From Gemmatimonadota bacterium (GTDB lineage: Bacteria; Gemmatimonadota; Gemmatimonadetes; Gemmatimonadales; Gemmatimonadaceae): 64,000 nucleotides of DNA. Made by a program: the position numbers and the translations under genes. Positions within the stretch are counted from its first letter, which is position 1. Each line of letters starts with the position of its first letter. The stretch is from positions 9,042 through 73,041 of the forward strand of contig JAZJZK010000011.1 in NCBI GenBank assembly GCA_040389905.1, given 5' to 3'. The notes beneath the pieces are model-generated. The model ran no database searches, was not told the DNA's origin, and worked only from the letters and a program-made list of their open reading frames with translations. This document shows, piece after piece, positions 27,178 through 63,945 of the stretch.

Positions 27178-27182
27178 CGTCG

Positions 27183-27530
27183 TCAAGCTCCGGCGATGGA
27201 CCGCGCGATCTGCGATGCGGTACGTCCCGCAATCTGCTGAGCGCGTGGCTTCTGTGGAAGATCCCGCCGGCGGATACCGGGGCTGTGTTTACGTCCAGCA
27301 TTCGGGATGCTCCCGCTTGCGACAAGCCGGGAGAGATGAGCCGCTGAGAATCCGGATTCCTCTGCAGCTGCTGCGACGGAGAGCACCGTCTCACGCTGAG
27401 TCGCGAAGGCTGCCTCGAGTTCGTCAGCCACAATGTGTAGGATGCGGGCGCCCCTGTCGTCCGCGAGGCGGTGACGCGCATTCTCTGCGGTCTCACGCCA
27501 TTTGTTGGGGAGGTCGGTCGGAGTGTTCAT
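27183..27530 (-). CDS. HTH protein, probable excisionase/recombination directionality factor
   Basis: LSVAAAAEESGFSAAHLSRLVASGSIP HTH immediately upstream of the integrase. Confidence 0.7.
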   Translation of the reverse strand: MNTPTDLPNKWRETAENARHRLADDRGARILHIVADELEAAFATQRETVLSVAAAAEESGFSAAHLSRLVASGSIPNAGRKHSPGIRRRDLPQKPRAQQIAGRTASQIARSIAGA

Positions 27531-44006: not shown

Positions 44007-44009
44007 CGA

Positions 44010-47000
44010 ATGACCGATCCCGGAATCCGCGCGCACCAGGAGTGGCTCGGTCTCATTCAACCTGTCGGTCTCGTCGTTGTGCCGTCGGCGCTCGTCGCTG
44101 CCCAAGTGGAGCTGGACCGCTCGCAGAGCAGCAAGTGGCTTGACTACGACGCGCTGCTCGTGCTCCGCGACAATGAACAGGTCCTGCCGGAATGGCCAAC
44201 GTTCGCCCGCGCGTTTCTCGAGTGGACGCCTTCACAGCTGGCAGGTGCCGAGGGAGGCCCAACACTCCCGGCCGAATTGAGCGTTGTGCTCCCCGAGCTC
44301 GATGCGACGATTCAACCGACCTATGCGGTGCCTGATCCACATCGCGACGGTGAATGGTTGCTGCTGGTGTCCGTGCAGGCCGATGACGTCGCACTCGATC
44401 GTTCAGCTTCGGCGCATGGCACCGGATGGAACGCGAGCCCACACGACCGTTTCGAGCGTCTCCTTCGTGAAACGGGAGTGCCGGCGGGTTTGCTCGTCAG
44501 CGGGGACGTGATCCGCTTCATCTACGCGCCGCGTGGTGAGTCTTCAGGTTGGCTGAACTTTCCGGTTGAAAGCATGGCGACGCCGAGCGGGCGTCCCATG
44601 CTTTCGGCGTTGTATGAGTTGTTGAAGGGATGGCGGCTCAGTCGCGCGTGTCCAGAGGCACGGGGACTACGGCGCCTGCTCGAAGAGTCACGAAAATATC
44701 AGAATGAGGTCTCGACACGTCTTTCCGAGCAGGTGCTCGCGTCCCTGTACGAAATGGCCCGTGGGTTTCAGGCCGCCGATGACGCTGCTCCGGGTACTGT
44801 CCTGCATGACACGTTGCGCCAAGCGCCCAGTGAGGTGTACGGCGGCCTGCTCACGACCATCATGCGTCTCGTGTTCGTGCTCTACGCCGAGGAGCGCGGA
44901 ATGCTCCCGCAGGATGCAGTGTGGGTCGAGCACTACGGAGTCGGCTCGCTGCTCGAGCGTCTGCGCGGAGACAGGTCGCGGTATCCGGACACCATGGATC
45001 AGCGGTACGGCGCGTGGCCTCGGCTACTGTCGTTGTTCCGCATTCTGCATGACGGCGCGAACCATGACTCGATGGTGATCCCATCACGCGCCGGCGAGCT
45101 GTTCGATCCCGATCGGTATCCATTCCTCGAAGGGCGTCCGTTCGGTACGCACCGTGTGATGGGCGAGCGGTTGACAAACCTCCCGCGTGTTTCCGACGGT
45201 ACGATGCTCCGTGTGCTGGAACGTCTGCTGATGCTTGACGAGGAGCGCCTATCCTACCGCGCGCTTGACGTAGAGCAGATTGGTTCCGTCTACGAAGCCA
45301 TGATGGGTTTCGAAGCGTTGGCTGCGCGAGGAGCATCCATCGCCGTGAGGCCGAAGACGAAGAAGGCGGGAAGCCCGAGTCATTCGATAGTCGATCTCGA
45401 CCGGCTGCTCGCGCAGCCTGCCGCCGACCGCATCAAGTGGCTCAAGGAGGACGCAGATTGTGAGCTGCCACCCGCCGATGCAGCGGCCCTGAACGCGGCA
45501 ACGAGCATCGATGCTTTGCTCGCGGCACTCGGCAAACGCATCTCCCCATTCACGCCGCAGCCGATTCGGCAGGGTGGTTTGGTTTTATCGCCAACGGAGG
45601 AACGGCGTCGTTCCGGCTCACACTACACGCCACGCGAACTTACCGAGCCGATTGTCGCGACAACGCTGCGGCCAGTGTTGGAAGCGTTCGGTGAGACGCC
45701 CACGCCCGAGCAGCTACTCGAATTGCGCATCTGCGATCCTGCGATGGGATCAGGAGCATTTTTGGTTGGCGCCTGTCGCTATCTCGGCGACAAGCTCGTG
45801 GAGTCATGGCAGCGTACGAATACAATGCCGGCCATCCCGCCGGACGAGGATCCACAGCTCTATGCGCGACGGATTGTTGCGCAACGCTGCCTCTACGGTG
45901 TGGATCGCAATCCATTTGCAGTGCAGCTTGCGAAACTGTCGCTCTGGCTTGTGACGCTGGCGCGAGAGCACCCATTCACCTTCTTGGATCATGCACTGCG
46001 GGGAGGCGACTCGCTGGTTGGGCTGAGTGCGAAACAGATCGCTGCATTTCATTGGAGTACGAAAGCACAGATCAGTCTATGGGGACCGACGGTCGCGACG
46101 CTCGTAGGCGCCGCCGTGAAACGGCGTTCGCAGATCGAATCGCTGGCAGGAACAGACGACACGGCGCTGAAGCTGCGCCTGTTAGGTGAATCAGACGACG
46201 CACTTCAGTTCGTCCGGCTGGTCGGCGACGCTGTTATTGCAGCATACTTTTCGGAGGAAAAAGAGAAGAAACGGGAGCAGTTGCGGCAACAGTACGAGCA
46301 GAGCGCGCAGGATTCCGTTGGAAAGGAACTGAATGGGGGGTCGTTGGAGGCGATCTCGGAGCGGTTACGCAATGCCGATCAACCCATCACGCCGTTTCAT
46401 TGGGATGTGGAATTCGCCGAAGTGTTCGGGCGCCCCAATCCCGGATTCGATGCGATCGTGGGAAACCCGCCATTCCTCGGCGGGAAGCGAATCAGCACAG
46501 CGAATGGAGGGCCATACAGGGACTGGCTGTCCACCATTCATGAAGGTGCCAGCGGCAACACGGACTTGGTTGCGCACTTCTTCCGGCGGGCATTTTCGTT
46601 GCTCAATCGTGGCGGCACTTTCGGGCTGATCGCAACGAACACGATCGCTCAGGGTGACACGCGCGTCGGTGGACTGGCATGGTTGTGCGAACATGGGTGT
46701 ACGGTCTACGAAGCACGCAAGCGGCTCGCATGGCCGGGACATGCTGCCGTAGTTGTGAGTGTTGTTTACGGTTCGAAGAGCGCGCTGCGGGGCCCGTTCC
46801 GGCTTAACGGGAAATTGGTCGATCGAATCTCCGCCTTCTTGTTTCACGCCGGTGGAAATGTCAGCCCCCAACGTTTGGTCGAGAACGCAGGAAAGAGCTT
46901 CAACGGCTCGTTCTTCAATGGTGTGGGATTCACCTTCGACGACGCCAATCCGGATGCGACGCCGATTTCCGATATCGAGCGACTGTGTGCGCTGAATCCA

Positions 47001-47879
47001 AGAAACAGGGAAGTGATCGTGCCGTTCATCGGTGGAGAGGAACTGAATGAGAGTCCGCGACAGATGTATCACCGCTACGTCATCAACTTCGCGGATATGG
47101 AGGAAAGCGAAGCGCGAATGTGGCCAGAATTATTGGCCATCGTCGAAGCGAAAGTTCGACCGCATCGGATGGAGGTAAAGCGCGAGTCTCATCGACAAAG
47201 ATGGTGGCAGTTCGGCGAGAAGCGCCTGGAGTTGTACTCCGCTCTCCGGAGGATGGAGAGAGTTCTTGTGAACTCGCAGGTCAGCACCCACTTCGCGTTT
47301 GCGTTTCAGCCAACGGATCGAATCTTCTCACACGCGCTCAACGTTCTCTTGTTCGATAAGAGCGCCGGTTTTGCCGTTCTCCAATCGCGCGCCCACGAGA
47401 TATGGGCTCGTTTTCTCGGCTCTTCCATGAAGGACGACCTTCGCTACACACCATCAGAATGTTTCGAAACATTTCCGTTCCCGGTCGATTGGGAGTTCTC
47501 GAAGGAACTTGACCGCGCGGGTATCGAATACTACGACTATCGCGCCCGATTCATGTCCACGAATCATCAGGGCCTGACCGCTACATACAACCGTTTCCAT
47601 GACCGCGACGAACAGGACCCAGGCATTCGCCGTCTCAGGGAAGTCCACGACGAAATGGATCGGGCTGTCCTCACGGCTTATGGTTGGACCGACCTACAAC
47701 CTACCTGCGAGTTTCTGCTTGACTACGACGACGACGAAGAAGACACGAATAGTCGGCGTCGCAAGCCGTGGCGCTACCGTTGGCCCGACGAAATTCGTGA
47801 CGAAGTCCTCGCACGTCTCATGGAGCTGAATCGCCAGCGCTCGACACAGCCTCCTGCACGGCAGCAATCGCTGTTTTGA
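44010..47879 (+). CDS. drmMI: DISARM class I N6-adenine DNA methyltransferase DrmMI
   Basis: GSHYTP, DPAMGSGAFL, GNPPF, C-terminal target-recognition region; lies between drmD and drmA. Confidence 0.88.
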   Translation: MTDPGIRAHQEWLGLIQPVGLVVVPSALVAAQVELDRSQSSKWLDYDALLVLRDNEQVLPEWPTFARAFLEWTPSQLAGAEGGPTLPAELSVVLPELDATIQPTYAVPDPHRDGEWLLLVSVQADDVALDRSASAHGTGWNASPHDRFERLLRETGVPAGLLVSGDVIRFIYAPRGESSGWLNFPVESMATPSGRPMLSALYELLKGWRLSRACPEARGLRRLLEESRKYQNEVSTRLSEQVLASLYEMARGFQAADDAAPGTVLHDTLRQAPSEVYGGLLTTIMRLVFVLYAEERGMLPQDAVWVEHYGVGSLLERLRGDRSRYPDTMDQRYGAWPRLLSLFRILHDGANHDSMVIPSRAGELFDPDRYPFLEGRPFGTHRVMGERLTNLPRVSDGTMLRVLERLLMLDEERLSYRALDVEQIGSVYEAMMGFEALAARGASIAVRPKTKKAGSPSHSIVDLDRLLAQPAADRIKWLKEDADCELPPADAAALNAATSIDALLAALGKRISPFTPQPIRQGGLVLSPTEERRRSGSHYTPRELTEPIVATTLRPVLEAFGETPTPEQLLELRICDPAMGSGAFLVGACRYLGDKLVESWQRTNTMPAIPPDEDPQLYARRIVAQRCLYGVDRNPFAVQLAKLSLWLVTLAREHPFTFLDHALRGGDSLVGLSAKQIAAFHWSTKAQISLWGPTVATLVGAAVKRRSQIESLAGTDDTALKLRLLGESDDALQFVRLVGDAVIAAYFSEEKEKKREQLRQQYEQSAQDSVGKELNGGSLEAISERLRNADQPITPFHWDVEFAEVFGRPNPGFDAIVGNPPFLGGKRISTANGGPYRDWLSTIHEGASGNTDLVAHFFRRAFSLLNRGGTFGLIATNTIAQGDTRVGGLAWLCEHGCTVYEARKRLAWPGHAAVVVSVVYGSKSALRGPFRLNGKLVDRISAFLFHAGGNVSPQRLVENAGKSFNGSFFNGVGFTFDDANPDATPISDIERLCALNPRNREVIVPFIGGEELNESPRQMYHRYVINFADMEESEARMWPELLAIVEAKVRPHRMEVKRESHRQRWWQFGEKRLELYSALRRMERVLVNSQVSTHFAFAFQPTDRIFSHALNVLLFDKSAGFAVLQSRAHEIWARFLGSSMKDDLRYTPSECFETFPFPVDWEFSKELDRAGIEYYDYRARFMSTNHQGLTATYNRFHDRDEQDPGIRRLREVHDEMDRAVLTAYGWTDLQPTCEFLLDYDDDEEDTNSRRRKPWRYRWPDEIRDEVLARLMELNRQRSTQPPARQQSLF

Positions 47880-48069
47880 ACAACCGCATGCTCCGGACTG
47901 ACCGCATCCTCTGACTCCTTATTACTAACTTTCGCTCGTGCGTCAAGTCAGCCGACGGAACGGCAAGACTTCCAAGTCCGACAGCAATCCAGGACAACAT
48001 GAACATCAACCCTAGTCTTCGAAGTCTGATGACCGATTGCTTGAGCCTCGCCGGCGCAATCACGAGACC

Positions 48070-51000
48070 ATGACGCAGACTTCTGTCGAAGTACGTGACG
48101 ATGTGGTACGTGCTCTCAGGCTCGATCTCGTGGGCCCGATGGCGAATCTCGAGTCGGATGCCAAGTACGCGAGTGAACGCCTGCCGATGAGTCCCTCGCG
48201 TTGGTATCTCACAGGATTCCTTGTGCCGTCGAACGCACCCGACGAGCAACGCTCCGACGAAGCGAGTCAGGAAGAGATGGATCTCGCTGGCGATTCGGAT
48301 ATCGACGGGGATGAGGACGTCGCGCCCGAGAAGGGCGCCGCGAAACGCCTGATCTTCCCAGCGTCGATCGGATTGAGCGTACTGATTCCGGAGGGCACCG
48401 ATGGACTCGATGCCGTCATTACATGGGGAGACTACGTCCCTGAGCCCAAGGCGTCTGCCGCGACTGAGGGTGGAGAAGTCGACGCCGCAGTAGGTGCCGT
48501 ACCCATACCACGAGACCAAGTCTGGGTTCGCACGCCGCGCTCCCAGTCCGTTCGTGTTCCAATCAGCGCGCCGGGATCAAAGTCGAAAGCAGTTGATGTG
48601 CCCGGCTCCGGTGGAATCAAGCTCTATTCGAGTGCACGCAACACAGGCGGTGGCGCAACCGGCCTGAAGAAGGGCACACAGTCAGTTGCCGTCTTCCTGG
48701 TAAACGAGCGCACACCAGAGCCGACCGACGAAAAGGACCGAGCGTTCATCTTTCAGGCAAAGCTCGAGCTCACATGCAACGACGGCTTCGTGCCGCGTCC
48801 TGATCCGCGTCGTGGATCCGAGGATGACTGGGACGACAAGGTCGCCGATGTGCAGTACGCCGATGTCTTCGAGTATGCGACCGGCCACGGTGTGTCCGCT
48901 GACTGGTCTGTAGGAGCCAAGACATGTACGCGCGCATGGACCACGTGGACGCCCTGCGCAAACGTGCCGTTTGTCGAGCCGGCAGACATGCCCGAAGCGA
49001 TGCTTGAAATGCAGCGGCTGGCGACCGTTAGTGGTGACGAGCTGACTGCCGGACTCACGCCGTTGGTGCAGGGATACAGCAAGTGGATCGAACTGCAGCG
49101 GTCACACCTGCCAGAAGACGAGAAGCGCAAGGCAACCGCGACTAACCTGCTGTCTCGTGCGACGACGGCGCGTGATCGGATGCAGCGCGGCATTTCACTC
49201 CTCGACGACGACACCATTCGTCGTGCTTTTCAACTCGCGAATCTCGCGATGGACGAGGCATCGCGCCGTCGAGTTGCGCAACGCTCGGGCCAGGCTCCTG
49301 GCGACGTTAAAGCGCCTGCATGGAGACCCTTCCAGCTCGCGTTCGTTCTGCTCAACATGGCTGGCATCGCGAATCCCGCCGACACTGATCGAGAGATTGT
49401 CGATCTACTGTTTTTTCCCACAGGTGGCGGCAAAACCGAGGCGTACCTGGGGCTCGCCGCGTTCACCCTGATCCTGCGACGTCTTCGCCAACCGACCGTT
49501 GCATCGGCGGGCGTGACGGTGCTCATGCGGTACACATTGCGTCTGCTCACGCTCGATCAGCTAGGGCGAGCGGCATCGCTGATCTGTGCGCTCGAACGGA
49601 TACGCTGGACGAACACGGATTCTCTCGGGCCGTGGCCATTCGAGATCGGGCTGTGGGTTGGCCGCGCGGCCACGCCAAACAGGATGGGAAAGACTGGCGA
49701 TCAGGATGAGAGCACGGCGCGGAAGCGTGTACAGGCGTACCAACAGAACAGCAGGCGCAAGCCTGCGCCGATTCCGATTGAGTCGTGTCCGTGGTGCGGC
49801 ACAGCGTTTACGAGAGACTCGTACGATCTGCGGCCGAATGCGAACCACCCCATCGACCTGCGAATCCTCTGCGTGAACACGTCGTGCGAGTTCTCCGGAG
49901 AACGCGCGCTCCCGATCGTCGCAGTGGACGAACCGCTGTATCGCCGTTTGCCCTGCTTCGTGATCGCGACAGTGGACAAGTTCGCGTCACTGCCATTCGA
50001 GGCACGCGCAGGTGCGTTGTTCGGACTGGTAGATCGTCACGATCAGAATGGTTTCTATGGGGCGGCCGATCCGGGCGTCGGCAATCCCATTCCTGGCGGT
50101 CGTCTTCAGCCGCCGGAGCTGATCATTCAGGACGAGTTGCATCTCATCTCGGGCCCTCTGGGGACCATCGCGGGACTGTACGAGGCAGCGATCGACCGGC
50201 TGGCAACTCGCGAGCAGAATGGCGCTATGATCAGGCCGAAGATCGTCGCATCGACAGCGACCGTACGCCGGGCAGAAAAGCAGGTGCGGGCGCTGTTTGC
50301 TCGCCGTGGAGTGGAGCTTTTCCCGCCGGCGAGCGCCAATCGCGATGACTCGTTCTTCGCACTGACCGCCCCGACTGATCGACACGCGCCGCGCCAGTAC
50401 ATCGGACTCGCCGCGCCAGGTCGAAGCCTGAAGGTCGTGATGCTTCGTGCGTACATCGCGCTCTTGGGCGCATCATATCGCGCATACAAAGCCAACGGCG
50501 CCGATCGATTCGGATCGAATCCAGCAGATCCATATCTCACGCTGCTGGGCTATTTCAGCGCGCTTCGAGAGTTGGGCGGTGCCAGGCGCATCATCGAGGA
50601 TGAAGTCAACAGCCGGCTCCGCATATACGGCGATCGCAAACGTGTTGGCGAGCAGCAGGGGCTCTTCGAGGATCGCGACATTGAGTATGAAGTGCTCGAG
50701 TTGACGTCTCGAAAATCAACCAGTGACGTCGCTCGGGCGAAGCAGCGTCTCGAACATGAATGGCGCCTCGATAACAAGGGAGAGCGCGTTGACGTGGCAA
50801 TCGCAACAAACATGATCTCCGTCGGCCTCGACATTTCGAGACTCGGCTTGATGGTCGTCGCCGGTCAGCCACGAGGGAGCGCGGAATACATTCAGTCCAC
50901 TAGCCGGGTCGGTCGCCTTCCGACCAGACCCGGATTGGTGGTGACGCTACTGACGACGAACAAGCCTCGAGATCGCTCACATTACGAGCGCTTCGGATTC

Positions 51001-51510
51001 TACCACCGCACGTTTTATCGATCGGTAGAAGCAACTAGTGTGACGCCGTTTGCGCCGCGCGCGGTGGATCGCGTGTTGCCTGCGCTGGTAGTTGCACTCG
51101 CGCGGCACATGGTCAAGCAGATGACGCCTGCGCGAGCAGCGATCGATATCGACGCTGCGCGTCCGCAGTTAGGGTTCATTCTCGACACGCTTGCAGAGCG
51201 CGTTGAGGCCTATGACCACGATCTCGATGCGGCAACTCGCGAAGAGATGCGGTTGAAGCTGCGCGGACTGGCGAGCGAGTTGCTGGACGATTGGAGCAGA
51301 ATCGCGAAGGAACAGCACGACACTGGGTCTGAATTGAAGTACCAGCAATACGAGCGAGTCGAGCGCGCCCAGCCGCTACTCTGGGATCCGCTCGACCCAA
51401 GACTCGCCGAGTTGTCCGCGCCTCGCGGCCGATTCAAGGCGGCGCGTTCGATGCGCGACGTAGAACCCGAAGTACTCCTGCTCAAGCGAGGCTCGCGCGA
51501 TGGCACGTAA
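48070..51510 (+). CDS. drmA: DISARM helicase DrmA
   Basis: WRPFQLAF, FPTGGGKTEAY, QDELH, ASTAT, ATNMISVGLD, QSTSRVGR. Confidence 0.93.
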   Translation: MTQTSVEVRDDVVRALRLDLVGPMANLESDAKYASERLPMSPSRWYLTGFLVPSNAPDEQRSDEASQEEMDLAGDSDIDGDEDVAPEKGAAKRLIFPASIGLSVLIPEGTDGLDAVITWGDYVPEPKASAATEGGEVDAAVGAVPIPRDQVWVRTPRSQSVRVPISAPGSKSKAVDVPGSGGIKLYSSARNTGGGATGLKKGTQSVAVFLVNERTPEPTDEKDRAFIFQAKLELTCNDGFVPRPDPRRGSEDDWDDKVADVQYADVFEYATGHGVSADWSVGAKTCTRAWTTWTPCANVPFVEPADMPEAMLEMQRLATVSGDELTAGLTPLVQGYSKWIELQRSHLPEDEKRKATATNLLSRATTARDRMQRGISLLDDDTIRRAFQLANLAMDEASRRRVAQRSGQAPGDVKAPAWRPFQLAFVLLNMAGIANPADTDREIVDLLFFPTGGGKTEAYLGLAAFTLILRRLRQPTVASAGVTVLMRYTLRLLTLDQLGRAASLICALERIRWTNTDSLGPWPFEIGLWVGRAATPNRMGKTGDQDESTARKRVQAYQQNSRRKPAPIPIESCPWCGTAFTRDSYDLRPNANHPIDLRILCVNTSCEFSGERALPIVAVDEPLYRRLPCFVIATVDKFASLPFEARAGALFGLVDRHDQNGFYGAADPGVGNPIPGGRLQPPELIIQDELHLISGPLGTIAGLYEAAIDRLATREQNGAMIRPKIVASTATVRRAEKQVRALFARRGVELFPPASANRDDSFFALTAPTDRHAPRQYIGLAAPGRSLKVVMLRAYIALLGASYRAYKANGADRFGSNPADPYLTLLGYFSALRELGGARRIIEDEVNSRLRIYGDRKRVGEQQGLFEDRDIEYEVLELTSRKSTSDVARAKQRLEHEWRLDNKGERVDVAIATNMISVGLDISRLGLMVVAGQPRGSAEYIQSTSRVGRLPTRPGLVVTLLTTNKPRDRSHYERFGFYHRTFYRSVEATSVTPFAPRAVDRVLPALVVALARHMVKQMTPARAAIDIDAARPQLGFILDTLAERVEAYDHDLDAATREEMRLKLRGLASELLDDWSRIAKEQHDTGSELKYQQYERVERAQPLLWDPLDPRLAELSAPRGRFKAARSMRDVEPEVLLLKRGSRDGT

Positions 51511-53284
51511 AGGCGTTGGGTCGCTCCGCCGAGGACAAGTGGTATCGTCGTTTGGTCCTGGCGCGACAATCGACCTGCCCGACATCTCCGTAGTGATTGG
51601 AGGGTTGGACTGGTGGAAGGGATATGACCAGGAGCGCATACTCGAGCCACGCCTTGAAGAGAAGGTCGCCCAGGCGCTCAAGGTCCCTCGGATCACGCTC
51701 TACGCACCTCCCGCTGAGGTGAAGGAACCTCACGGTCCGATGTTCGGCATTCCTGTCGACGAGTTTCCACTGTGGTTCGTTGCCGACGTTGAACAGAAGA
51801 AGGGACGCGCGCGCACGAGGCCACTTCTTCATCAGAGAAGTCTGGTTAAAGGCGAGTACGAACATGAGCGAAAGAAGTATCCCGTCACCCCCGTTCGTTT
51901 CGTCCAGGCGTGCAGCAACGGGCATATCGCCGACATCGAATGGTACGAGTTCACCCATTCGGGCCGTACTTCCTGTCACCGTCCGTTGTGGATCGATGAG
52001 TATGGCACCAGCGGCGATCTGACCGACGCGCTTGTTCGATGCGAGTGCGGCGAGCAGCGCGCGCTTGCTCAGGCGACTCGCCGGGATGTGTTGGGGCAGT
52101 GCAAGGGTCAGCGGCCTTGGCTTCCGAAGGGTGAGTTGTGCGGCGGTGTAGGTGGGAAGCCGGAGATGATGCGGTTGCTGATCCGCACGGCGAGTAACGC
52201 GTACTTCCCGCAGAAACTGTCTGTGCTCTCGTTGCCGGAGGCGGGCGACAAGATCCGCGCTGCCGTCCGAGGACTCTGGTCGATGCTGAAGGATGCGGAC
52301 TCCGTCGAGAAGCTGGCGGCCTTCCGATCGATGCTGAGCGCGGTGCGAGATGGGCTTCAAGGCATCGATGATGCGACCGCGTTCGGGTACATCGTGGCCG
52401 AGCGCGAAGGCAGGACCCCGGTGCGACGGCCCATCAAGGTGGACGAGTTCGAGGCACTCACGCAGGCCGCAGAGAGCCTCGGAGAGGATCGTCCCGACGG
52501 TGACTTCTATGCGCGCCGTCTTGCTTTGCCCAATCCGCAGGTGGGTGTGCTTGCCCCTATCGAACGTGTCGTGCTCGTTCATCGGCTGCGCGAAGTCACC
52601 GCGCAACTCGGCTTCACACGCTTCGAATCGGTTGTCCCCGATGTCCAGGGTGAGCTCGATCTTAACGTTCGACGAGCGGCCTTGGCGATGGAGCCGACGT
52701 GGATGCCTGCTGTCGAGACGCGAGGAGAAGGGGTATTCATTTCCTTCAAGAAGTCGGCACTCGAAGAGTGGCGCGCGCGGCCTGAGGTGCGTGCGCGTGA
52801 CGACGCCTTCAAACGCGCGTTCGATGCGCAACGAGGTCCGGCAGAGCGTCCAGACGCCACCTACGTCATGCTGCATTCTCTGGCGCACCTGCTGATTACC
52901 GCCGTCGCGCTGGACTGTGGCTACAACACCGCCTCGATTCGAGAACGCATTTACGTCGGCGCGGACGGCTGCGGCATTCTTCTCTACACGGGGACATCGG
53001 ACGCCGAGGGCACACTGGGCGGTCTCGTGCAATCGGGCAGGAAGATCGGACGGTACCTGCGCCTTGCACTCGACCTTGGGCGCCTGTGCGCGAATGATCC
53101 GGTCTGTGCGCAGCGGCCACCGGACTCACAGCATGACGACCGGAATTCGTTGGGCGCGGCATGTCACGGCTGCCTTTTGATCAGCGAGACATGCTGCGAA
53201 CGGCGCAATGAGTACTTGGATCGCTCGCTTGTTGTCGCGACGGTTCAGAACCTTGGCTGCGAGTTCTTCGTCGAGCCGGCATGA
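51500..53284 (+). CDS. drmB: DISARM DrmB (DUF1998)
   Basis: FGPGA, HSLAHLL, GTLGGL, CANDPVC...ACHGC...CERRN. Confidence 0.93.
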   Translation: MARKGVGSLRRGQVVSSFGPGATIDLPDISVVIGGLDWWKGYDQERILEPRLEEKVAQALKVPRITLYAPPAEVKEPHGPMFGIPVDEFPLWFVADVEQKKGRARTRPLLHQRSLVKGEYEHERKKYPVTPVRFVQACSNGHIADIEWYEFTHSGRTSCHRPLWIDEYGTSGDLTDALVRCECGEQRALAQATRRDVLGQCKGQRPWLPKGELCGGVGGKPEMMRLLIRTASNAYFPQKLSVLSLPEAGDKIRAAVRGLWSMLKDADSVEKLAAFRSMLSAVRDGLQGIDDATAFGYIVAEREGRTPVRRPIKVDEFEALTQAAESLGEDRPDGDFYARRLALPNPQVGVLAPIERVVLVHRLREVTAQLGFTRFESVVPDVQGELDLNVRRAALAMEPTWMPAVETRGEGVFISFKKSALEEWRARPEVRARDDAFKRAFDAQRGPAERPDATYVMLHSLAHLLITAVALDCGYNTASIRERIYVGADGCGILLYTGTSDAEGTLGGLVQSGRKIGRYLRLALDLGRLCANDPVCAQRPPDSQHDDRNSLGAACHGCLLISETCCERRNEYLDRSLVVATVQNLGCEFFVEPA

Positions 53285-54063
53285 ACGTCGTGCTGCCGGG
53301 GGTTGCACCTGTGCAACTCGAGAGGATCGCGGATGCCTTGGATCGTCCCGCATTTGCTGGCGACGTTGAAGTGCTCCTTCGCGAGCTAGATGTTAGTGAC
53401 CCTTCGTCGGTCGCGCGGGAGTTGCGCGCACATCTCGCGCAGTCGACTGCAGCGAGCCTGTCTGACGTTCTGAGAGCTGTGGCAGCGGAGCGACGCGCGG
53501 CAACGCAAGCCGCAGACCGCCGGCTTGAACTTGTTTGGACGGGGCCAGAGCGAGATGGAACGGCGACGCGCGACACTGCGGTCGTCGTTCGCGAGCTGTT
53601 TCAGTCAGCCGAGCATGACGTGCTGGTGGCCGGCTATGCCCTATACAATGCTCGGTCCATACTTGAACCGCTTGCACAGCGTATGCTCGCGCGCGCAGCG
53701 CTTCGAGTGCGCCTCATTCTGAACATCGCACGTGATGAGGCCGCGCTCAGCGATGAGGACTCACTCCGCGAGTTCGCGCGCAAGTTCAGGAAGCATCATT
53801 GGCCGTCGTCTCCGTATCCTACCTTGTACTACGACCGAAGAGCATTCGACAGGAGGCCGGAATGTCGCGCAGTAATGCACGCGAAGTGCGTCCTCGTGGA
53901 TGCGAAGCGGAGCTTTCTCACGTCCGCGAATCTGACTGAGGCTGCACAGACACGAAACATAGAGCTTGGAGTCGTAATCAACGACGCTGCGTGGTGCAGG
54001 GGGGTGAAGGAGCAGTTTGACGATCTTATCGCGCGCGGAGCCCTCTCCGAGCTGCGCTCTTAA
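53281..54063 (+). CDS. drmC: DISARM phospholipase D-like nuclease DrmC
   Basis: ELVWTGP, HAKCVLVD (HKD), SANLT...NIELG. Confidence 0.92.
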   Translation: MNVVLPGVAPVQLERIADALDRPAFAGDVEVLLRELDVSDPSSVARELRAHLAQSTAASLSDVLRAVAAERRAATQAADRRLELVWTGPERDGTATRDTAVVVRELFQSAEHDVLVAGYALYNARSILEPLAQRMLARAALRVRLILNIARDEAALSDEDSLREFARKFRKHHWPSSPYPTLYYDRRAFDRRPECRAVMHAKCVLVDAKRSFLTSANLTEAAQTRNIELGVVINDAAWCRGVKEQFDDLIARGALSELRS

Positions 54064-54948: not shown

Positions 54949-55465
54949 GGGACAGGCCAGAGCTATGTCGCCAAAGCGCTGACGCTGCTCGCCGTGCAGC
55001 GCTGGTATAGGGCGTCTACCGCGAAGCGCATCAACTGATCGAGGACAATGTCGAAGCGCGCGAACTCGGGAAGCTCCGCGCGTACGGCAGTCAACTGAAG
55101 GCGATCGATCTCCTGCTCATTGATGATCTGTGTTTGCGCAAACTCCCGGCCCCCGGCGGCGACGAGCTCGGGGAAGTCTTGACGGAGTCGACATGAAAGA
55201 GCGTCGACGATCGTCACATCGAAGGGCCGGTCGATGATTGGGCGAGCCTCCTCGGTGATACCTTCGTCGTCATGCAGCTACTCGACCGGCCAATGCACCA
55301 CGGCACTTGCTGAGGTTTGACGGCAGGAGCTGGCGCCTGCGGGAAGCGGCTGCGCGAGTTGCCAAGTGTCCATCGAACGGGTAGCGTCCCTCCGTTCCGC
55401 CACATCTGCAGGTGGGGGAATTTGACCCGGCCACGGGGGGGAGGAGTTCGCAGTGGCCACCGGGG
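54949..55465 (+). mobile_element. istB: Degenerate IS21-family remnant (frameshifted istB 3' half plus terminal repeat)
   Basis: GTGQSYVAKAL, LLLIDDL, DDWASLLGD, LLDR.MHHG, GRSWRLRE across frames; end repeat at 55409-55465. Confidence 0.8.
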
Positions 55466-57900: not shown

Positions 57901-60852
57901 ATGGCAAAGGCTCGGAAGCCCGCCAAGGGGCGCTCGGAGTCGGCGTATGTCGTCGCACAATTCGCCAATCGGCTCGTACTCGGGCAAGTGGTGCACGAGA
58001 GTGCGACTGGGCTCGTGAAACTTCGAGTGGCCGACGGCACGGTTCTCGAGTTGGTTCCCGACGGACGGCTCATGGATGCGGCCAGTCCGGACGTGTTCGC
58101 CGAAGTGTCGTTTTCACCGCCTTCGGGCGACGAAACGCAGCGTTTCGACGCGCTTGTGTCCCTCTTCCGCGAAGAGCAGAAGACGGCGGAAGAACGGCGC
58201 CTGTGGGCGAAGGCAGTCATCGGTGCAGATCTCCCCGCTGGCAAGGAAGTCGACGAGCTCCTTCGGTATCGATATGAGCAGCTTCGCGCCGAGTGGATGT
58301 CAACGCTGCGAAACATTTTGTCGGGCTCCGTCGCCGCCGGAAACGATAGGCTTTTGCTCGCGGCGCTTGAACAGGGTGTGCCCACGGACGTGCGCCGCTT
58401 GGCGAGTGACATTGCCGTGGAAACAAGATCGCTTTCTTCCGTTACGCCGCTCTGCGCCGCCGCAATCCACAAAACACAGGCGGCATTTGCTCGTGATGCT
58501 GCTCGGGCTTTGGCGCAACTGGCTCCGGAGCGGCTACCGTTGATCGCGCGTGTGGTGCACCGCGATGTCATGGATGCGATCGATCTTGCATCGTCCTCAT
58601 CACTGCGCGAAGCGAAAGTGCTCGGTCTTGAGCCACCAGGCCCGGAACAGAGTGTCGACAACGCGGTATCGTCGGACGACAGGCAAAGCGCAATTCCTGC
58701 GACGTTGCGCGGCGAAGTGTTGATGCACCTCACTCTTGCACTCCCCGTCGTTGATCAGACGCGAATACTCAGCTCGAGCAGCATCGAGCCTGGGCAACAA
58801 TCGGTTGCCAGCATGCTGCGCGTGGCAATACGCGATTCCTTTCGTGCAATCGTCGAGAAGGAGTCGCCGACTGGTTACGAGCTGTTGCTCCGCACCGCTC
58901 TTGCCCAGCTCATCCTCGCGGACTCAAGCGCCGATGTCTCCGATCTCCTCGCGGTAGCCGCGCGATCCCTGGCACGAGACGCGGACGCCGGAACGCTCCG
59001 CGACCTCACACTTACGCTGCCGGAGGAGGTGGCCGCTCGACTCGTGCGCGCCGCAATCGTTGGTCTCCGCATGGAGCGACTGACCGCACTTCTCGCCGAC
59101 ATTGCAGAAGGACGACCCTCGTTGGCACGTCTCGTCGCACCGGCCCTGCGCTCGGGACTCAAGGGCGGTGATTGGCAACCGAGCATTCGGCCGACGGTAC
59201 TTGGATTATTGGCAGCGGACACGGAGTCGCACCAGTTCGTCGCGAGAGAAGTGGTCCGAGAATTTGCCAACGACACATCGCCAGAGACTGAGGCGCTTGC
59301 GCGCGCGATCGTCCGAAACGGTGTCGTGATCGAATTGTCGCATGTGAGACAGTCTGGCCGGGCAAGTCTGATCAACGCATTGGTCGACGGATCGCCGCGC
59401 TACGCGGCCAGCGTCATCCGAGCACTATTGACGGACCGAGAGCAGGTAACGACATGGGAAGCGCTCAACAACTTGGTGTTTCCCATCGATTGGATCACGA
59501 CGGACGACGATCTCCGCGCTTCACTCATTGAATGGTTACCAATCGCAGTCGCCCACCGCATCTCTGCATCGTTCAGGGACTCCTACATCGGCATTCTGAG
59601 CAGTGACGCACCTGACGCATGGTCACAATGGTCGGTTGCGATTCGCGATGCGGCCATGTCGGTGCTGCGAGACACCAACCCAGCAGTGGCACTCCCCATC
59701 CTCGCAGCGGTTGCCTCACGGATGAAGCCTGGCGAGGAAAACCGCGCCAAGCTCGTCGAGAGCCTCGTCGGAGATTTCCTTGCGTGCGATCCCGAGTCCC
59801 TCCCACTGGTATCGGCTGTCATACCGAATGAGGAATTGCAATCCGCCCTTCTTCTTCACGGCGTCACGCTGGATCGATTAATTGCCCAGCGACGAGCGGA
59901 TGATCAAAGCCTGCATGTTGCGGCGGGGGAGCGACTCGCCGCTGACCTGCAGCGTGAGCTGGAGCGCGCGCAGTATGCCCTGAGGCGCGAGGATCAATTG
60001 GGGGCCCTGTTCGCTCGCCTGTCCGAGGATGTTGCAGCTCTGCTGCCTCGCTCGAAGACAGAAGATCCCGAAGTTGTGGATTTTGTTGCCGAGTTCAGCC
60101 CGTCGACGACGCGCGCGGCAGCTCAGGATGATGAACTGCTCTCGGCACTTCGCCGACTCGGTGGAAGAAGCCGTTCTTCTCAGGCGGCGCTCTCGTTCTT
60201 TCGTGAACGTATCGCGACTCTGCTCCAAGTAATGTCGCGCGCGGAGGTCGAAGCGTTCGTCGAGCGGCGGCGTTCTGTGCTCGACCGCCTTCCTCTTTCT
60301 GCGATCGCACCCGTTGCCGTCGCTCTGCTTCGATGCGGAGGTGATCCCTCACGCATCTGGGCGCTGCTTGGGGGTGGGCGGGATGCGCGTGGTGCGGTCG
60401 ATGTTGCGTTGGGCGCCGGAACCGCGCACACGGCTGCTGGGACCGAACTCCTGCGGATCGCGGCCGTGGACATAGGCACGCTCACTGCGGCGGTTGCCTC
60501 GCGATCGGCGGAATGGCGCGAACTATCCACGCGGCAGTCGACCGTGAGCGGGAGTATCGTGGACCTCGCACGTCGGCTGGCGCCGACTATCGAAGCCATC
60601 GACGGACTGATTCTGAACTATGGGCGCGTACGACACGTCCTCGGCGCTCACGGGCTTGCCCCAATTGAGCCCGTCCTCGGCCAGCGACACGGGCTTAGCC
60701 ATCTTACACCAGGTGCACACCGAGTCGTTGGGCTGAGCCTCGGTGAGGGGATTTACGAAGTGCAGACACACGGGATGAAGTTGGCGGATAGCGGCGACGT
60801 CGTTGTCCCAGCGGCCGTTGCGCGACAAGCAGACGTGGGCGACACCCCGTGA
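57901..60852 (+). CDS. Large helical protein with C-terminal GrpE-like domain
   Basis: ~983 aa; ends in a coiled coil then VLGAHGLAPIEPVLGQ...PGAHRVV...EVQTHGMKL...VVVPAAV, resembling the GrpE head. Confidence 0.65.
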   Translation: MAKARKPAKGRSESAYVVAQFANRLVLGQVVHESATGLVKLRVADGTVLELVPDGRLMDAASPDVFAEVSFSPPSGDETQRFDALVSLFREEQKTAEERRLWAKAVIGADLPAGKEVDELLRYRYEQLRAEWMSTLRNILSGSVAAGNDRLLLAALEQGVPTDVRRLASDIAVETRSLSSVTPLCAAAIHKTQAAFARDAARALAQLAPERLPLIARVVHRDVMDAIDLASSSSLREAKVLGLEPPGPEQSVDNAVSSDDRQSAIPATLRGEVLMHLTLALPVVDQTRILSSSSIEPGQQSVASMLRVAIRDSFRAIVEKESPTGYELLLRTALAQLILADSSADVSDLLAVAARSLARDADAGTLRDLTLTLPEEVAARLVRAAIVGLRMERLTALLADIAEGRPSLARLVAPALRSGLKGGDWQPSIRPTVLGLLAADTESHQFVAREVVREFANDTSPETEALARAIVRNGVVIELSHVRQSGRASLINALVDGSPRYAASVIRALLTDREQVTTWEALNNLVFPIDWITTDDDLRASLIEWLPIAVAHRISASFRDSYIGILSSDAPDAWSQWSVAIRDAAMSVLRDTNPAVALPILAAVASRMKPGEENRAKLVESLVGDFLACDPESLPLVSAVIPNEELQSALLLHGVTLDRLIAQRRADDQSLHVAAGERLAADLQRELERAQYALRREDQLGALFARLSEDVAALLPRSKTEDPEVVDFVAEFSPSTTRAAAQDDELLSALRRLGGRSRSSQAALSFFRERIATLLQVMSRAEVEAFVERRRSVLDRLPLSAIAPVAVALLRCGGDPSRIWALLGGGRDARGAVDVALGAGTAHTAAGTELLRIAAVDIGTLTAAVASRSAEWRELSTRQSTVSGSIVDLARRLAPTIEAIDGLILNYGRVRHVLGAHGLAPIEPVLGQRHGLSHLTPGAHRVVGLSLGEGIYEVQTHGMKLADSGDVVVPAAVARQADVGDTP

Positions 60853-60982
60853 AGGACCGCGCGTGAGAGGTAGGAACTGAACGCAAGCAAGGAACGAATG
60901 TGGATCATGAACGTCCTGCAACTCTGCAGTAACCTGGATCGCTGAACCGTCCGCGCATCGTCGTGATGCTTGAGGATCAAAA

Positions 60983-62977
60983 GTGAACGTCGGCATCGAC
61001 TTTGGCACCACAAACTCATCGATCGCATTCCAACGCTCACCGAGAAGCGCTCCAGAGTGCGCGTCCGTCGACCAGCACATCAACCTCCCGTTTGACGTGG
61101 TGCTTCGCACCGCAGTACTGCTGGATCAATTTGGCAGGCTCATCGACAACGGCGTGGGAGCCGTGGCGGCAGATCCGATGTCTTGGGTGGATCCGAAGAC
61201 GAAGGTCCCTCGTCGGGTGCTTCAGCATATCAAGCCGTTCTTACGGACCTTTCGGCTGAGGGAGCAATGGCCTGAAGAACGCACGCGCATCGACTTCAAC
61301 TTTTACGACCACCTTCGGCAGGAGCCAATGGTGGTTACGTACACGGACGTTGTGGAAAGCGGCGACATGGCTTGTTCGCGTGAGGAGTTGATGACAGCGG
61401 CGGCCGCCGTCTTCCGCACGCTCTTCAACAAGACGCCATCGGCAGTCATGCAGCAGCGTCCGCAGATCGTGATTGGTGTGCCGCTCATCTTTCCTGACTA
61501 CTCCAAGAAGCGACTTCTCGACATTGTCGTGCGGAGCGGCGTCTGTGGCAAGGACGAGCCTTACCGCGAAGCACTTCGGCGAGTGCGGTTCCTTCCCGAA
61601 CCAATTGCAGCAAGCCTGCTCTATTCCATGGAGTGTGAGCCTCCGCGCGGCAAGTCGACTGGACGCGTGCTGATCTTCGACTCGGGTGGCGGGACACTCG
61701 ACCTCGCTTTGATCGAGTTCGCCGTCGTTGAAGGCGAGTATCGTCCGGTGCGTCAGATCGCACTTGGGTCGCAGGTTCTGGCAGGACGGCTGTTCGATGA
61801 ATGCATCGAACGGCATGGTTTGGACCAATATCGAGACGCTGTGCGGAAGAGAAACAGCGGCTTGGCGAATCCCGATGAGGTCACCAGCTGGCAGTTGAGT
61901 CAGGCTGCCGAATCGATCAAGGTGGCGCTGTCGACCAGAGTGGAGTACGAAGAACTCTCACTGAGCGGAGCGGGCGTACGCCCTCGAATCACGCGAAGTG
62001 CATTTGAGCGGTGGTGTCAGCCAGTGCTTGAAAAGACGGAGGCGCTTGTACGCTCGACAGTCGCCGACATGGACGCAGTGGATACGGTGATGATGGTTGG
62101 CGGGTCGTCGCTGCTTCCCTGTGTTCAACAACTGATCCAGCGACTCTTCCCCGACGCGCAAGTGATCTCCGAGGACGCGCGACAGAACGGACGTGGTGAG
62201 GGAGTCGAGCGTGCATTGACCGCTGTCTCAAAGGGGCTCGCGCTCTACGACGATGCGGTGACGCGCCACGGAATCACGCCGTTTGCCTACGGTTTCTGGG
62301 ATACAGTATCAAACGAGGTAGTACACGCGGCCCCGAAATGGTCCACGCACAGTAGCGAGCGGCCAGTGGCGAGGCTTCAAGTGCCTCGGGGCGCCGACGC
62401 GATCACGCTCACGTTGGTTCAGGAGCTGGTTAGTCCTGAGCGAGTCCTGAACGTGGTCAATGTCCCGGTTTCAGGACAAAACGGCGATCGAACGCACGTG
62501 CTCGCCCGCGTCCGTACTTCGGAAGGAAGCCTTTACCCAGACATCGAATTGCTGGACCCTGGTACCCTCACAATCTCCGCCGAACTACGCATGACGGACT
62601 TGTCGGAGCGTGTTCTTCGGGAACTCATCGAGCACGATGATCACGCGCTTCGATGGAGCGGAGCTGCACAGATCAGCGCTCGGGACACGAGCTATCCAGA
62701 AGTCGTCACACTTCGCGTCGGTGATGATGTCGTGTTCCGAAACCGAATGGCGGATGGATCAAGTGTCATGCAGCCCGGTGTCATCAACCGTATCGACAAG
62801 ATTGCAGATGGGTTTCGATACGACGAGGTGGGGCACTGGGACCTCCGCAGCTGGCGCTTCTATCTCCAGGTGACTGAGCACGGGGTTGCGACCTTTGTGC
62901 CGTCCCTCCTGACTGACATTCGGCTCGCTCGTCGCGGTACACGCAACGGCCGGCGTATCCGGGAGACCCGCCAGTGA
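60983..62977 (+). CDS. Hsp70-family (DnaK-like ATPase domain) protein with atypical C-terminus
   Basis: VGIDFGTTNS, IGVP, EPIAA, VLIFDSGGGTLD, AESIKVALS, VGGSSLLP. Confidence 0.88.
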   Translation: MNVGIDFGTTNSSIAFQRSPRSAPECASVDQHINLPFDVVLRTAVLLDQFGRLIDNGVGAVAADPMSWVDPKTKVPRRVLQHIKPFLRTFRLREQWPEERTRIDFNFYDHLRQEPMVVTYTDVVESGDMACSREELMTAAAAVFRTLFNKTPSAVMQQRPQIVIGVPLIFPDYSKKRLLDIVVRSGVCGKDEPYREALRRVRFLPEPIAASLLYSMECEPPRGKSTGRVLIFDSGGGTLDLALIEFAVVEGEYRPVRQIALGSQVLAGRLFDECIERHGLDQYRDAVRKRNSGLANPDEVTSWQLSQAAESIKVALSTRVEYEELSLSGAGVRPRITRSAFERWCQPVLEKTEALVRSTVADMDAVDTVMMVGGSSLLPCVQQLIQRLFPDAQVISEDARQNGRGEGVERALTAVSKGLALYDDAVTRHGITPFAYGFWDTVSNEVVHAAPKWSTHSSERPVARLQVPRGADAITLTLVQELVSPERVLNVVNVPVSGQNGDRTHVLARVRTSEGSLYPDIELLDPGTLTISAELRMTDLSERVLRELIEHDDHALRWSGAAQISARDTSYPEVVTLRVGDDVVFRNRMADGSSVMQPGVINRIDKIADGFRYDEVGHWDLRSWRFYLQVTEHGVATFVPSLLTDIRLARRGTRNGRRIRETRQ

Positions 62978-63945
62978 CGGCGTTCGAGGTCGGGGCCCGC
63001 GTCCGTATCATCGGCGGCCCCGTCGGGATGGTGATGGAGGTGCAATCACACCTCACTCCACCGTCCTATCGTGTGTTCCTTTCGGCCCTCGCTACGCCAC
63101 TGGTTTCCGAACCAGATCTTGAATCGGTGGATACTGTAGACTCGGACCTCGGCGCGTTGCTACGGGCCGGCGTATTCACGTCGGCAGGGGCGTTCCGATT
63201 CGCCCTCACGCAGCGGAAACTCGCTGACCAGCTCACGGATACGCTGTTCTCGTACAATGCGGCCCGCATCGAGATTCAGGCGCACCAATTCAAGCCACTT
63301 CTCAAGCTCCTCGACTCTCCATATCGTCGTCTGCTCATTGCCGATGAAGTTGGACTCGGCAAGACGATCGAGGCCGGGATAATCCTGAACGAGTTCGACC
63401 TCCGGGAGCGGCTCGAACGGGTGATGGTTGTTTGCCCTCATGCGTTGGTGCACAAATGGCGGGACGAGCTGGATGCAAAGTTCGGTATGCGGTTCGAACA
63501 CTGGTCGGGAACGCAGGTGCGTACGTGGATCGACGAGGCGCAAAAGAACGGGCAAGCCCAACCGATGCGCTGCATCGTCTCGCTCGAAGGCATGCGCGGT
63601 GGAGACATCGCCGAGTTACTGCAAGCTGCGCCGGTGTTCATCGACATGCTCATTGTCGACGAAGCGCACCATCTGAGGAATGACGAGACGCAATCATATG
63701 CCTTGGGAGAGGCACTGACCGGTGCAGCTGACATTGTCCTCTTCCTTTCAGCCACGCCTCTGAATCTCCGAAGCCGCGACCTGTTCAACCTGGTGCACCT
63801 GCTGTTGCCGGACGTCTACACGAACGAGGAGACATTTGATGCCCAGTTGGTGCCAAACCAGGCACTGAACCAAGCGATTCGGATGCTACGTGGTGGAGCT
63901 GCGAACACGGACGTTCGATCGATCGCGCTCCAGGTCCATGCGAGC
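62974..63945 (+). CDS. RapA-like SNF2 helicase, interrupted by an IS21-like end (absent from the ORF track because no stop codon occurs before the window end)
   Basis: GTGA overlap with the Hsp70 stop; HQFKPLLK, LLIADEVGLGKTIEAG, VDEAHHLRN, LSATP. Confidence 0.85.

What the first reader, a model, noticed from the sequence alone, without database searches (positions are those of the whole stretch)
57901..63945. Candidate undescribed defence module: giant GrpE-tailed protein + Hsp70-like protein + SNF2 helicase
Seen: three co-oriented genes in a defence island downstream of DISARM. Gene 1 is a ~980-aa helical protein ending in a GrpE-head-like pattern. Gene 2 has all Hsp70 ATPase motifs but a divergent C-terminus and no DnaJ partner in view. 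Gene 3 is a SNF2 ATPase translationally coupled to it (GTGA overlap). Known: GrpE is the nucleotide-exchange factor of Hsp70, and SNF2 ATPases are common in anti-phage systems. Inference: a dedicated chaperone switch in which the large protein senses a phage component and, through nucleotide exchange on its cognate Hsp70, controls the helicase or a downstream effector. I do not recognise this trio as a named system.
Basis: partly seen in the sequence, partly recalled or inferred. Interest (0 to 1): 0.85.

Follow-up and report, generated by a model that had tools for sequence, protein, structure and literature searches.

The report
Private Hsp70–GrpE switch beside SNF2 motor
Three neighbouring bacterial genes (a giant helical protein with a predicted GrpE-like tail, an unusual Hsp70 ATPase and an SNF2-type DNA motor) recur together in distant bacteria, mostly beside anti-phage genes, and likely form an undescribed chaperone-controlled defence module, although in this genome an insertion sequence splits the motor gene and probably disables it.

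Summary
Gene 1 (983 aa) is a predicted HEAT-like solenoid ending in a GrpE-like domain. Gene 2 is a lid-less Hsp70 with its catalytic residues intact. Gene 3 is a RapA/DrmD-like SNF2 ATPase overlapping gene 2 by GTGA.

The trio is a rare, mobile unit:
- 5 metagenomic contig lengths are shared by close relatives of all three genes.
- 8 distant loci carry the full trio; 7 of them have defence-gene neighbours (BREX, Hma, GmrSD, PDC candidates).
- It was not found in 400 phylum or 400 family genomes.

The wider SNF2 clade pairs with an Hsp70/actin-fold or HSP90-like ATPase in 26 of 39 loci.

No library family, and no paper in 10 searches, describes the trio. This scan noted related Hsp70–SNF2 cassettes on other DNA before.

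Best reading: a private chaperone switch that gates an anti-invader DNA motor. Sensing, binding and defence are inferred, not shown.

The parts
57901..60852 (+). Gene 1, 983 aa: small N-terminal beta domain, long HEAT-like alpha-solenoid, C-terminal GrpE-like domain
   Evidence: ORF; relatives start at this ATG; AF2 mean pLDDT 84, pTM 0.56; no Pfam, PADLOC or NCBIfam family
57946..58080 (+). Predicted N-terminal five-strand beta domain (residues 16-60), family unknown
   Evidence: no profile match to the small barrels of genes 2 and 3
58132..60459 (+). Predicted alpha-solenoid or helical body (residues about 78-853); candidate sensor or scaffold
   Evidence: Foldseek and VIA-align give only generic HEAT/ARM/helical matches
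60472..60825 (+). GrpE-like tail (residues about 858-975): long helix, helix pair, beta head
60983..62977 (+). Gene 2, divergent Hsp70 of 664 aa: nucleotide-binding domain, SBD-beta-like sandwich, no alpha-helical lid, C-terminal beta barrel
   Evidence: PF00012; AF2 pLDDT 86, pTM 0.85; Foldseek top hits are DnaK over about 600 columns
60983..62260 (+). Hsp70 ATPase domain; K84, E206, D233 and T238 invariant, D6 nearly invariant; the hydrophobic DnaK linker is replaced
62726..62926 (+). C-terminal SH3/KOW/Tudor-like barrel where DnaK has its lid (lead only)
   Evidence: secondary structure; Atlas structure neighbours all under the naming bar
62974..63945 (+). Gene 3, N-terminal half (324 aa) of a RapA/DrmD-like SNF2 ATPase; the other 693 aa lie at G000:C30:55-2136
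63938..63945 (+). 8-bp target-site duplication, repeated right after the other IS end at the start of contig C30
63946..64000 (.). End of an IS21-like insertion sequence (three insertions in the genome; the body is not assembled)
   Evidence: the family is inferred from a similar end next to an IstB fragment
40782..54063 (+). Context: class I DISARM (DrmD, DrmMI, DrmA, DrmB, DrmC), with its own DrmD
26020..27186 (-). Context: phage-type integrase at the likely left edge of the island
   Evidence: PF00589, E 1.4e-15

Best explanation
The three genes are a conserved, mobile unit that likely works as a private chaperone switch gating an anti-invader SNF2 DNA motor, and this genome's copy is probably disabled because an insertion sequence splits the motor gene.

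Shown: the gene order, the folds as predicted, the intact ATPase motifs, the co-occurrence of the three genes, and the split.

Inferred steps:
(1) The lid-less Hsp70 has no J protein of its own and has lost the linker that J proteins act on. It would serve one dedicated client, most likely the SNF2 to which it is translationally coupled, and hold it inactive in the ADP state.
(2) The solenoid of gene 1 would bind an invader protein. Its GrpE-like tail would then drive ADP/ATP exchange and release the motor.
(3) The SNF2 carries no recognisable nuclease. It would translocate on DNA and stall or strip phage transcription or replication complexes, alone or helping the neighbouring methylation-based systems.
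For: GrpE-like tail. A tail profile built only from close relatives ranks the partner gene of 7 distant Hsp70 loci as the top 7 of 35,355 ORFs (E 1e-9 to 3e-3; the next ORF has E 0.19).

Active Hsp70 with no lid and a lost linker. Separate housekeeping dnaK, grpE and dnaJ exist on contigs C6, C7 and C27.

Linkage:
- 6 of 7 full-length gene 1 relatives share a contig length with an Hsp70 relative, and 5 of these also with an SNF2 relative.
- Among 11 distant long-Hsp70 loci with DNA, 10 have a tail gene and 9 of 10 testable ones have the SNF2.
- The three genes stay together when rearranged (L164).
- The three proteins diverge in step (Spearman 0.83-0.84 over 55 non-independent pairs).

Defence setting: DISARM, PDC-S68 and a TerY-P-like triad here. 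7 of 8 distant full trios have defence neighbours, one sitting inside a BREX locus.

In the wider SNF2 clade, the partner is an Hsp70/actin-fold or HSP90-like ATPase in 26 of 39 loci.

IS split.
Against: There is no experimental evidence of defence, and no effector domain was recognised in any of the three proteins.

The defence-neighbour control is weak: 5 of 8 random other-Hsp70 loci also had a PADLOC hit at E <= 1e-28 (2 of 8 defence-specific by my judgement). Trio neighbours were partly hand-picked for scanning.

Exceptions exist:
- L084 is a long Hsp70 fused to TPRs, with no partner gene seen.
- 6 short Firmicutes forms, 5 of them placed in the same Hsp70 clade, have no SNF2 downstream.
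- L166 has no defence neighbour.

Trio SNF2s are not one clade in a fast tree (7 changes, 5 forced). The GrpE sequence signal is weak (hhalign probability 13.5%; no PF01025 hit). The tails of L010 and L166 are seen only by alignment, and the L006 tail fragment scores only E 4.
Confidence: 0.42

Rival explanations
1. Dedicated maturation kit with no sensing: the Hsp70 and its GrpE-tailed partner constitutively fold or assemble the SNF2, and the trio acts as an accessory to neighbouring methylation-based systems (DISARM, BREX, Hma).
For: This locus and L007, L085, L086 and L164 sit beside or inside such systems. The trio has no nuclease of its own. GrpE and Hsp70 normally work as a folding cycle (established knowledge).
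Against: The neighbouring system changes from locus to locus, and L008, L010, L097 and L166 show none in the DNA held. The systems here and in L007 have their own SNF2. An 850-residue fast-evolving body is not needed for nucleotide exchange.
Confidence: 0.25
2. Decoy or guard: the Hsp70 is the sensor, a bait for phage proteins that normally use host DnaK; binding trips the SNF2, and gene 1 only resets the switch.
For: Phages such as lambda need DnaJ/DnaK, and bNACHT25 senses phage through DnaJ (PMC12169576, passages). The Hsp70 keeps an SBD-beta-like sandwich.
Against: The Hsp70 is very unlike host DnaK in its linker and C-terminus, which makes it a poor mimic. Gene 1 is the fastest-changing protein (29-51% identity among close relatives, against 52-74% for the Hsp70), as expected of a sensor.
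Confidence: 0.15
3. Not defence: a mobile stress or transcription-rescue cassette, with the SNF2 acting like RapA on RNA polymerase or on DNA-protein blocks.
For: RapA is the closest solved structure of the intact SNF2 (E 1.7e-36). L166 has no defence neighbour.
Against: The distribution is very patchy, 7 of 8 distant trios have defence neighbours, and one lies inside a BREX locus. The RapA family cut-off is not met (223 against 576 bits).
Confidence: 0.11
4. Two units that often travel together: a GrpE-like/Hsp70 pair, plus an independent SNF2.
For: Short Firmicutes forms lack a downstream SNF2. Trio SNF2s are not one clade. Most SNF2s of the wider clade have other partners.
Against: The GTGA coupling; 9 of 10 testable long-Hsp70 loci have the SNF2; the trio is kept when rearranged; Hsp70 and SNF2 identities track each other among close relatives (Spearman 0.95 over 15 non-independent pairs).
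Confidence: 0.07

Closest known systems
DnaK-DnaJ-GrpE housekeeping chaperone system
   Same: Hsp70 ATPase with its catalytic residues and an SBD-beta-like domain; adjacent gene with a GrpE-like domain
   Different: No lid, hydrophobic linker lost, extra C-terminal barrel, no J gene nearby; the GrpE-like domain sits at the end of a 983-aa solenoid protein; coupled to an SNF2; far below the DnaK cut-offs (74 against 823 bits); the host has its own set
GAP1-N2 GTPase-centred conflict systems with HSP70 and GrpE (PMC7159879, passages read)
   Same: A private HSP70 plus GrpE inside a predicted conflict system
   Different: Those are built on GAP1-N2 GTPases and an FNIII protein fused to DnaJ or TPR. 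None of these was seen here, and an SNF2 is not part of that description in the passages read.
Type III CoCoNuT CnuD/CnuCD (PMC11090510, passages read)
   Same: Hsp70-like NBD/SBD and HEAT-like repeats in a defence operon
   Different: CnuD has a degenerate ATPase, works with an McrB-like GTPase, and GrpE is not mentioned (0 occurrences). Here the ATPase motifs are intact and the HEAT-like part is on the GrpE-tailed protein.
DISARM DrmD, BREX BrxHI/II, Hma HmaA, ARMADA ArmA and RapA (RapA-like SNF2 ATPases)
   Same: The same SNF2 class along most of its length (PADLOC DrmD E 2e-137; NCBIfam DrmD 377 bits)
   Different: Below the curated cut-offs (610 for DrmD, 576 for RapA, 500 for DpdE); partnered with an Hsp70 rather than a methyltransferase; the local DISARM has its own DrmD
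PADLOC candidate PDC-M61 (component B)
   Same: Weak match to two distant trio Hsp70s (E 5.5e-10 and 7.9e-7)
   Different: No match to this Hsp70 or genome.

Membership tests
GrpE (PF01025) | Long helix, helix pair and C-terminal beta head | tested here: met
   AF2 residues 858-975; Atlas structure rows to GrpE clusters, one over the naming bar; profile positions 6-142 match solved GrpE chains
GrpE (PF01025) | Score over the Pfam cut-off | tested here: not met
   No PF01025 hit in gene 1 or its relatives
GrpE (PF01025) | Dimer that binds the Hsp70 NBD and exchanges nucleotide | not testable with these tools
   Needs a binding and nucleotide-exchange assay
DnaK/Hsp70 chaperone | Actin-like NBD with phosphate-1, phosphate-2 and adenosine motifs, catalytic Lys and Glu | tested here: met
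DnaK/Hsp70 chaperone | SBD-beta sandwich | tested here: met
   AF2 strands at 435-535; Foldseek alignment to DnaK over about 600 columns
DnaK/Hsp70 chaperone | Hydrophobic interdomain linker and alpha-helical lid | tested here: not met
   Linker replaced in all 28 non-DnaK rows; the C-terminus is a beta barrel
DnaK/Hsp70 chaperone | J-domain partner gene nearby | tested here: not met
   PF00226 hits only on contigs C7 and C27 (genome 85% complete)
DISARM class I DrmD | NCBIfam NF038317 cut-off and place in a drmD-MI-A-B-C operon | tested here: not met
   377 against 610 bits for intact relative P0138; the local DISARM has its own DrmD; distant trios sit by other systems
RapA (HepA) | NCBIfam PRK04914 cut-off | tested here: not met
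   223 against 576 bits
RapA-like SNF2 ATPase class | Walker A, DEAH and motif VI in one frame | tested here: met
   Present in the 10 intact relatives checked; split between two contigs in this genome
Type III CoCoNuT | McrB-like GTPase and McrC-like partner in the operon | tested here: not met
   No such family among the neighbouring proteins scanned in the window and C30; not every ORF was scanned
GAP1-N2 systems with HSP70/GrpE | GAP1-N2 GTPase and FNIII-DnaJ/TPR protein | tested here: not met
   None among the neighbours scanned; no dedicated profile was searched
PADLOC PDC-M61 | Component profiles A, B and others | tested here: inconclusive
   No hit here; weak hits in two relatives; system definition not seen
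Anti-phage defence system (any) | Protects cells against phage or plasmid | not testable with these tools
   Genomic context only

The most novel reading that the evidence does not exclude
A new class of bacterial immunity in which a complete private Hsp70 cycle is the trigger. A HEAT-like sensor carrying its own nucleotide-exchange domain flips a lid-less Hsp70 that unleashes an SNF2 DNA motor. This trio would be the most complete form of a wider rule in which one SNF2 lineage is controlled by interchangeable chaperone-type ATPases (Hsp70, actin-fold or HSP90-like). That would be a bacterial parallel to actin-related proteins regulating eukaryotic SNF2 remodellers (this parallel is recalled, not tested).
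Probability: 0.3. Interest if true: 0.88.

Novelty: new variant of a known kind. Interest (0 to 1): 0.7.

Why it matters
If true, bacteria have turned the GrpE–Hsp70 cycle from a folding machine into an immune switch, with an SNF2 motor and no nuclease as the output. That would give a testable route by which chaperones detect invaders. It would also point to what RapA-like SNF2 ATPases do in defence islands, a role I recall as poorly understood in DISARM and BREX. Intact copies are in hand for cloning (L007, L008, L010, L085, L086). The copy in this window is a poor test object because its motor gene is split.

Tried and rejected
**Complex prediction.** Hsp70 residues 1-540 with two copies of the tail gave no answer (score 0.00 twice, controls not folded). 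It is not used as evidence either way.

**Fold searches.** Searches with the whole gene 1 model returned only generic helical repeats and did not test the tail. A wide VIA-align search of the Hsp70 model had not finished when I stopped.

**Locus searches.**
- A single-sequence search of genome contigs found only one short chance-level match.
- Viral contigs gave only distant Hsp70s, including one short Firmicutes form (L232).
- No plasmid match covered 80% of the protein.

**Reads.** No RNA holder was listed. In the one DNA run laid, which may be the source of this DNA, the contig stops inside the IS end and no uninterrupted allele appeared; contigs drop rare variants. The C30 side was not checked with reads.

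**Smaller checks.**
- Promoter and terminator scans gave chance-level counts. No tRNA was found in the window or the flanks scanned.
- The idea that all three proteins share one small barrel was rejected: no gene 1 match, and Hsp70 against SNF2 gave only 27% probability.
- The first SNF2 tree had one row in the wrong frame and was replaced.
- The PDC-M61B search in 201 genomes rang nowhere and is uninformative.

**Rejected readings.** 'A second DrmD of the DISARM' (below cut-off; DrmD already present), 'housekeeping dnaK operon' (a separate set exists), and 'gene 3 is cut only by the window edge' (it is cut by an IS).
Full report
**Observation.** Genes 1 and 2 are 130 bp apart here; in L085, L086 and L008 they overlap. 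Upstream lies a full class I DISARM. Further upstream are an integrase and a primase-like gene. GC3 of the trio is 0.65-0.70 against 0.85 for host dnaK, which fits an acquired island.

**The SNF2 gene is split.** The window ends at the end of contig C11. Its last 55 bases are one end of a repeated element found at six contig ends. An 8-bp direct repeat pairs the C11 end with the start of C30 and with no other end; the other two insertions pair by 6-bp repeats. C30 continues with a 693-aa Helicase_C frame. The two halves align to residues 1-324 and about 323-1013 of intact relatives of 1001-1025 aa. An 89% similar end lies next to an IstB fragment at about window 55014-55465, so the element is likely IS21-type. 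The break separates the two ATPase lobes, so this copy is probably dead (inference). Downstream on C30 come PDC-S68, a UvrD-like gene, a vWA/PP2C/kinase triad (TerY hit) and PDC-M14A.

**Gene 1.** It hits no family in Pfam, PADLOC or NCBIfam. A search of 1.84 billion representatives gave 12 relatives besides itself, 6 of them full-length at 30-46% identity. The model (pLDDT 84, pTM 0.56) shows a small beta domain, a long helical body, then two helices and a beta head at 858-975. The body matches only generic HEAT/ARM proteins. The tail's structure neighbours are GrpE clusters, one of them over the naming bar, with TM-scores by query of 0.40-0.50. A tail profile matches solved GrpE chains over nearly its whole length at E 0.007-0.015; two designed coiled coils scored higher but covered only the helical half. 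Against host GrpE, hhalign gave E 0.002 and probability 13.5%. I read the tail as a real but very divergent GrpE domain.

**Gene 2.** The model (pLDDT 86, pTM 0.85) matches DnaK over about 600 columns. K84, E206, D233 and T238 are invariant in 24 family members and D6 is nearly invariant. The hydrophobic linker of host DnaK is replaced in all 28 non-DnaK rows; its role in J-protein stimulation is recalled, not tested. The lid is replaced by a beta barrel with SH3/KOW-like neighbours, all under the naming bar. The host has separate dnaK, grpE and dnaJ genes, and no J-domain gene was found on C11 or C30. The long form is a small family: 21 clusters score 462 bits or more and the next scores 231, among the 8000 candidates scored; most of the 21 were in the profile.

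**Gene 3.** Intact relatives keep Walker A, DEAH and motif VI. They score best against DrmD, DpdE and RapA, but below every cut-off. RapA is the nearest solved structure. No nuclease domain was detected.

**Linkage among close relatives.** 6 of 7 full-length gene 1 relatives share a length with an Hsp70 relative, and 5 of those also with an SNF2 relative. 8 of 12 close SNF2s share a length with an Hsp70; the other 4 are on contigs under 5.6 kb. Two Hsp70+SNF2 contigs (22,794 and 49,563 bp) showed no gene 1, but that search shows only one protein per 50% cluster.

**Linkage among distant relatives.** These (24-30% identity) come with DNA, in 11 loci. Full trios: L007, L008, L010, L085, L086 (Solirubrobacterales), L097 (frameshifted), L166 (Bacillota) and L164 (Burkholderiales, tail gene convergent). 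L006 and L009 are cut by contig ends. L084 is an exception, an Hsp70-TPR fusion. A tail profile built without these loci ranked their partner genes as the top 7 of 35,355 ORFs. L006 (a fragment) scored E 4, and L010 and L166 were not recovered and rest on alignment only. Identities of the three proteins fall in step (the pairs are not independent). In a fast tree the trio Hsp70s fall in one clade (95% local support), apart from DnaK/HscA. That clade also holds L084, P0022 and five short Firmicutes forms without a downstream SNF2. An actinomycete version with a shorter tail protein, a shorter Hsp70 and a convergent SNF2 (L109, L121, L136, L315; L355 with Hsp70 and SNF2 only checked) is a separate Hsp70 branch. 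The module was not found in 400 phylum or 400 family genomes, nor in 299 further genomes of L085's class.

**Defence setting.** 7 of 8 distant full trios have PADLOC-matched neighbours: BREX (L007, L164), Hma and GmrSD (L085, L086), PDC-S68 (L010, L097) and PDC-S33 (L008). L166 has none. As a control, 8 loci drawn at random from 81 other-Hsp70 loci gave any hit in 5 of 8, and defence-specific hits in 2 of 8 by my judgement. The enrichment is suggestive, not proven.

**Wider pattern.** A scan of 2 of 64 parts of the genome collection gave 67 SNF2 loci, of which 39 score 670 bits or more against the trio profile; 28 lower-scoring ones were dropped. Their adjacent partners were: an actin/Hsp70-fold ATPase in 14 (called by motifs and mutual similarity, mostly without a Pfam hit), the actinomycete Hsp70 in 2, a sacsin/HSP90-like ATPase in 10, UvrD in 6, and unresolved in 7. 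None had the long Hsp70. Partner type clusters on the SNF2 tree, while trio SNF2s do not form one clade. So this motor lineage is repeatedly paired with chaperone-type ATPases, and the trio is a rare form of that pattern.

**Mechanism.** I commit to a gated motor: the Hsp70 likely holds the SNF2; gene 1 likely senses an invader and triggers nucleotide exchange; the freed motor likely blocks invader DNA transactions. All three steps are inferred, and my confidence is 0.42. My odds that the trio is one functional unit are about 0.9, and that it serves defence in some way about 0.8. The rivals are a constitutive maturation or accessory role, a decoy Hsp70, a non-defence cassette, and loose hitch-hiking.

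**Literature.** Ten searches found no description of this trio. I read term-matched passages only, in PMC7159879, PMC11090510, 10.64898/2026.10.19.760177, PMC12169576, PMC8195603, PMC3710099, PMC12839542, PMC12458937, 10.64898/2026.09.30.754977 and PMC13069673. 10.1101/2024.01.29.577857 had none of the terms. No supplements were read, so large candidate tables could list the trio, and most subscription papers are outside the library. HSP70 with GrpE in GAP1-N2 systems and Hsp70-like domains in CoCoNuTs are the nearest precedents. Earlier notes of this scan describe related cassettes on other DNA, but none matched this Hsp70 by sequence.

**Verdict.** A real, undescribed, rare three-gene module, probably defensive, present here as a broken copy. 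Interest 0.70.

Noticed in passing
L314-L380 (39 loci of the wider SNF2 clade): The same SNF2 lineage sits next to interchangeable ATPases: actin/Hsp70-fold (14), actinomycete Hsp70 (2), sacsin/HSP90-like (10), UvrD (6), unresolved (7). Partner type clusters on the tree.
   Followed up: partly
window 55753-57546: A 597-aa ORF just upstream of the trio with a weak match to anti-phage GapS1 (E 1.4e-13, far under the cut-off) and no Pfam family.
   Followed up: no
window about 55014-55465: Decayed IS21-type remnant: an IstB fragment with a stop, beside an end 89% like the element that split the SNF2.
   Followed up: partly
window 26020-40367: Integrase, UvrD-like gene, Toprim/AAA_25 primase-helicase, Ser/Thr kinase and HNH gene precede DISARM. 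The island looks like an integrative element running from about 26 kb into C30.
   Followed up: partly
L002:2178-17238 (G000:C30): The island continues with PDC-S68, a UvrD-like gene, a vWA/PP2C/kinase (TerY-P-like) triad and PDC-M14A.
   Followed up: partly
L164:9995-17317: The trio is rearranged (tail gene convergent with Hsp70-SNF2) and inserted between pglX and brxC of a BREX locus.
   Followed up: partly
L157, L158, L167, L169, L173, L232: Short (508-550 aa) sister Hsp70s in Firmicutes, in a different operon: a Cys-tailed protein, a 630-920-aa protein, the Hsp70, and in four of the six a small repeat-tailed protein. No SNF2 downstream.
   Followed up: no
L084:380-5059: Planctomycete Hsp70 of the same clade fused to TPR repeats (1559 aa).
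   Followed up: no
window 61259-61360 (Hsp70 residues about 93-126): A long beta-hairpin insertion in the ATPase domain, kept across the family; role unexplained.
   Followed up: no
window 54104-54736: A 210-aa zinc-ribbon plus coiled-coil ORF right after drmC, with no PADLOC match.
   Followed up: no
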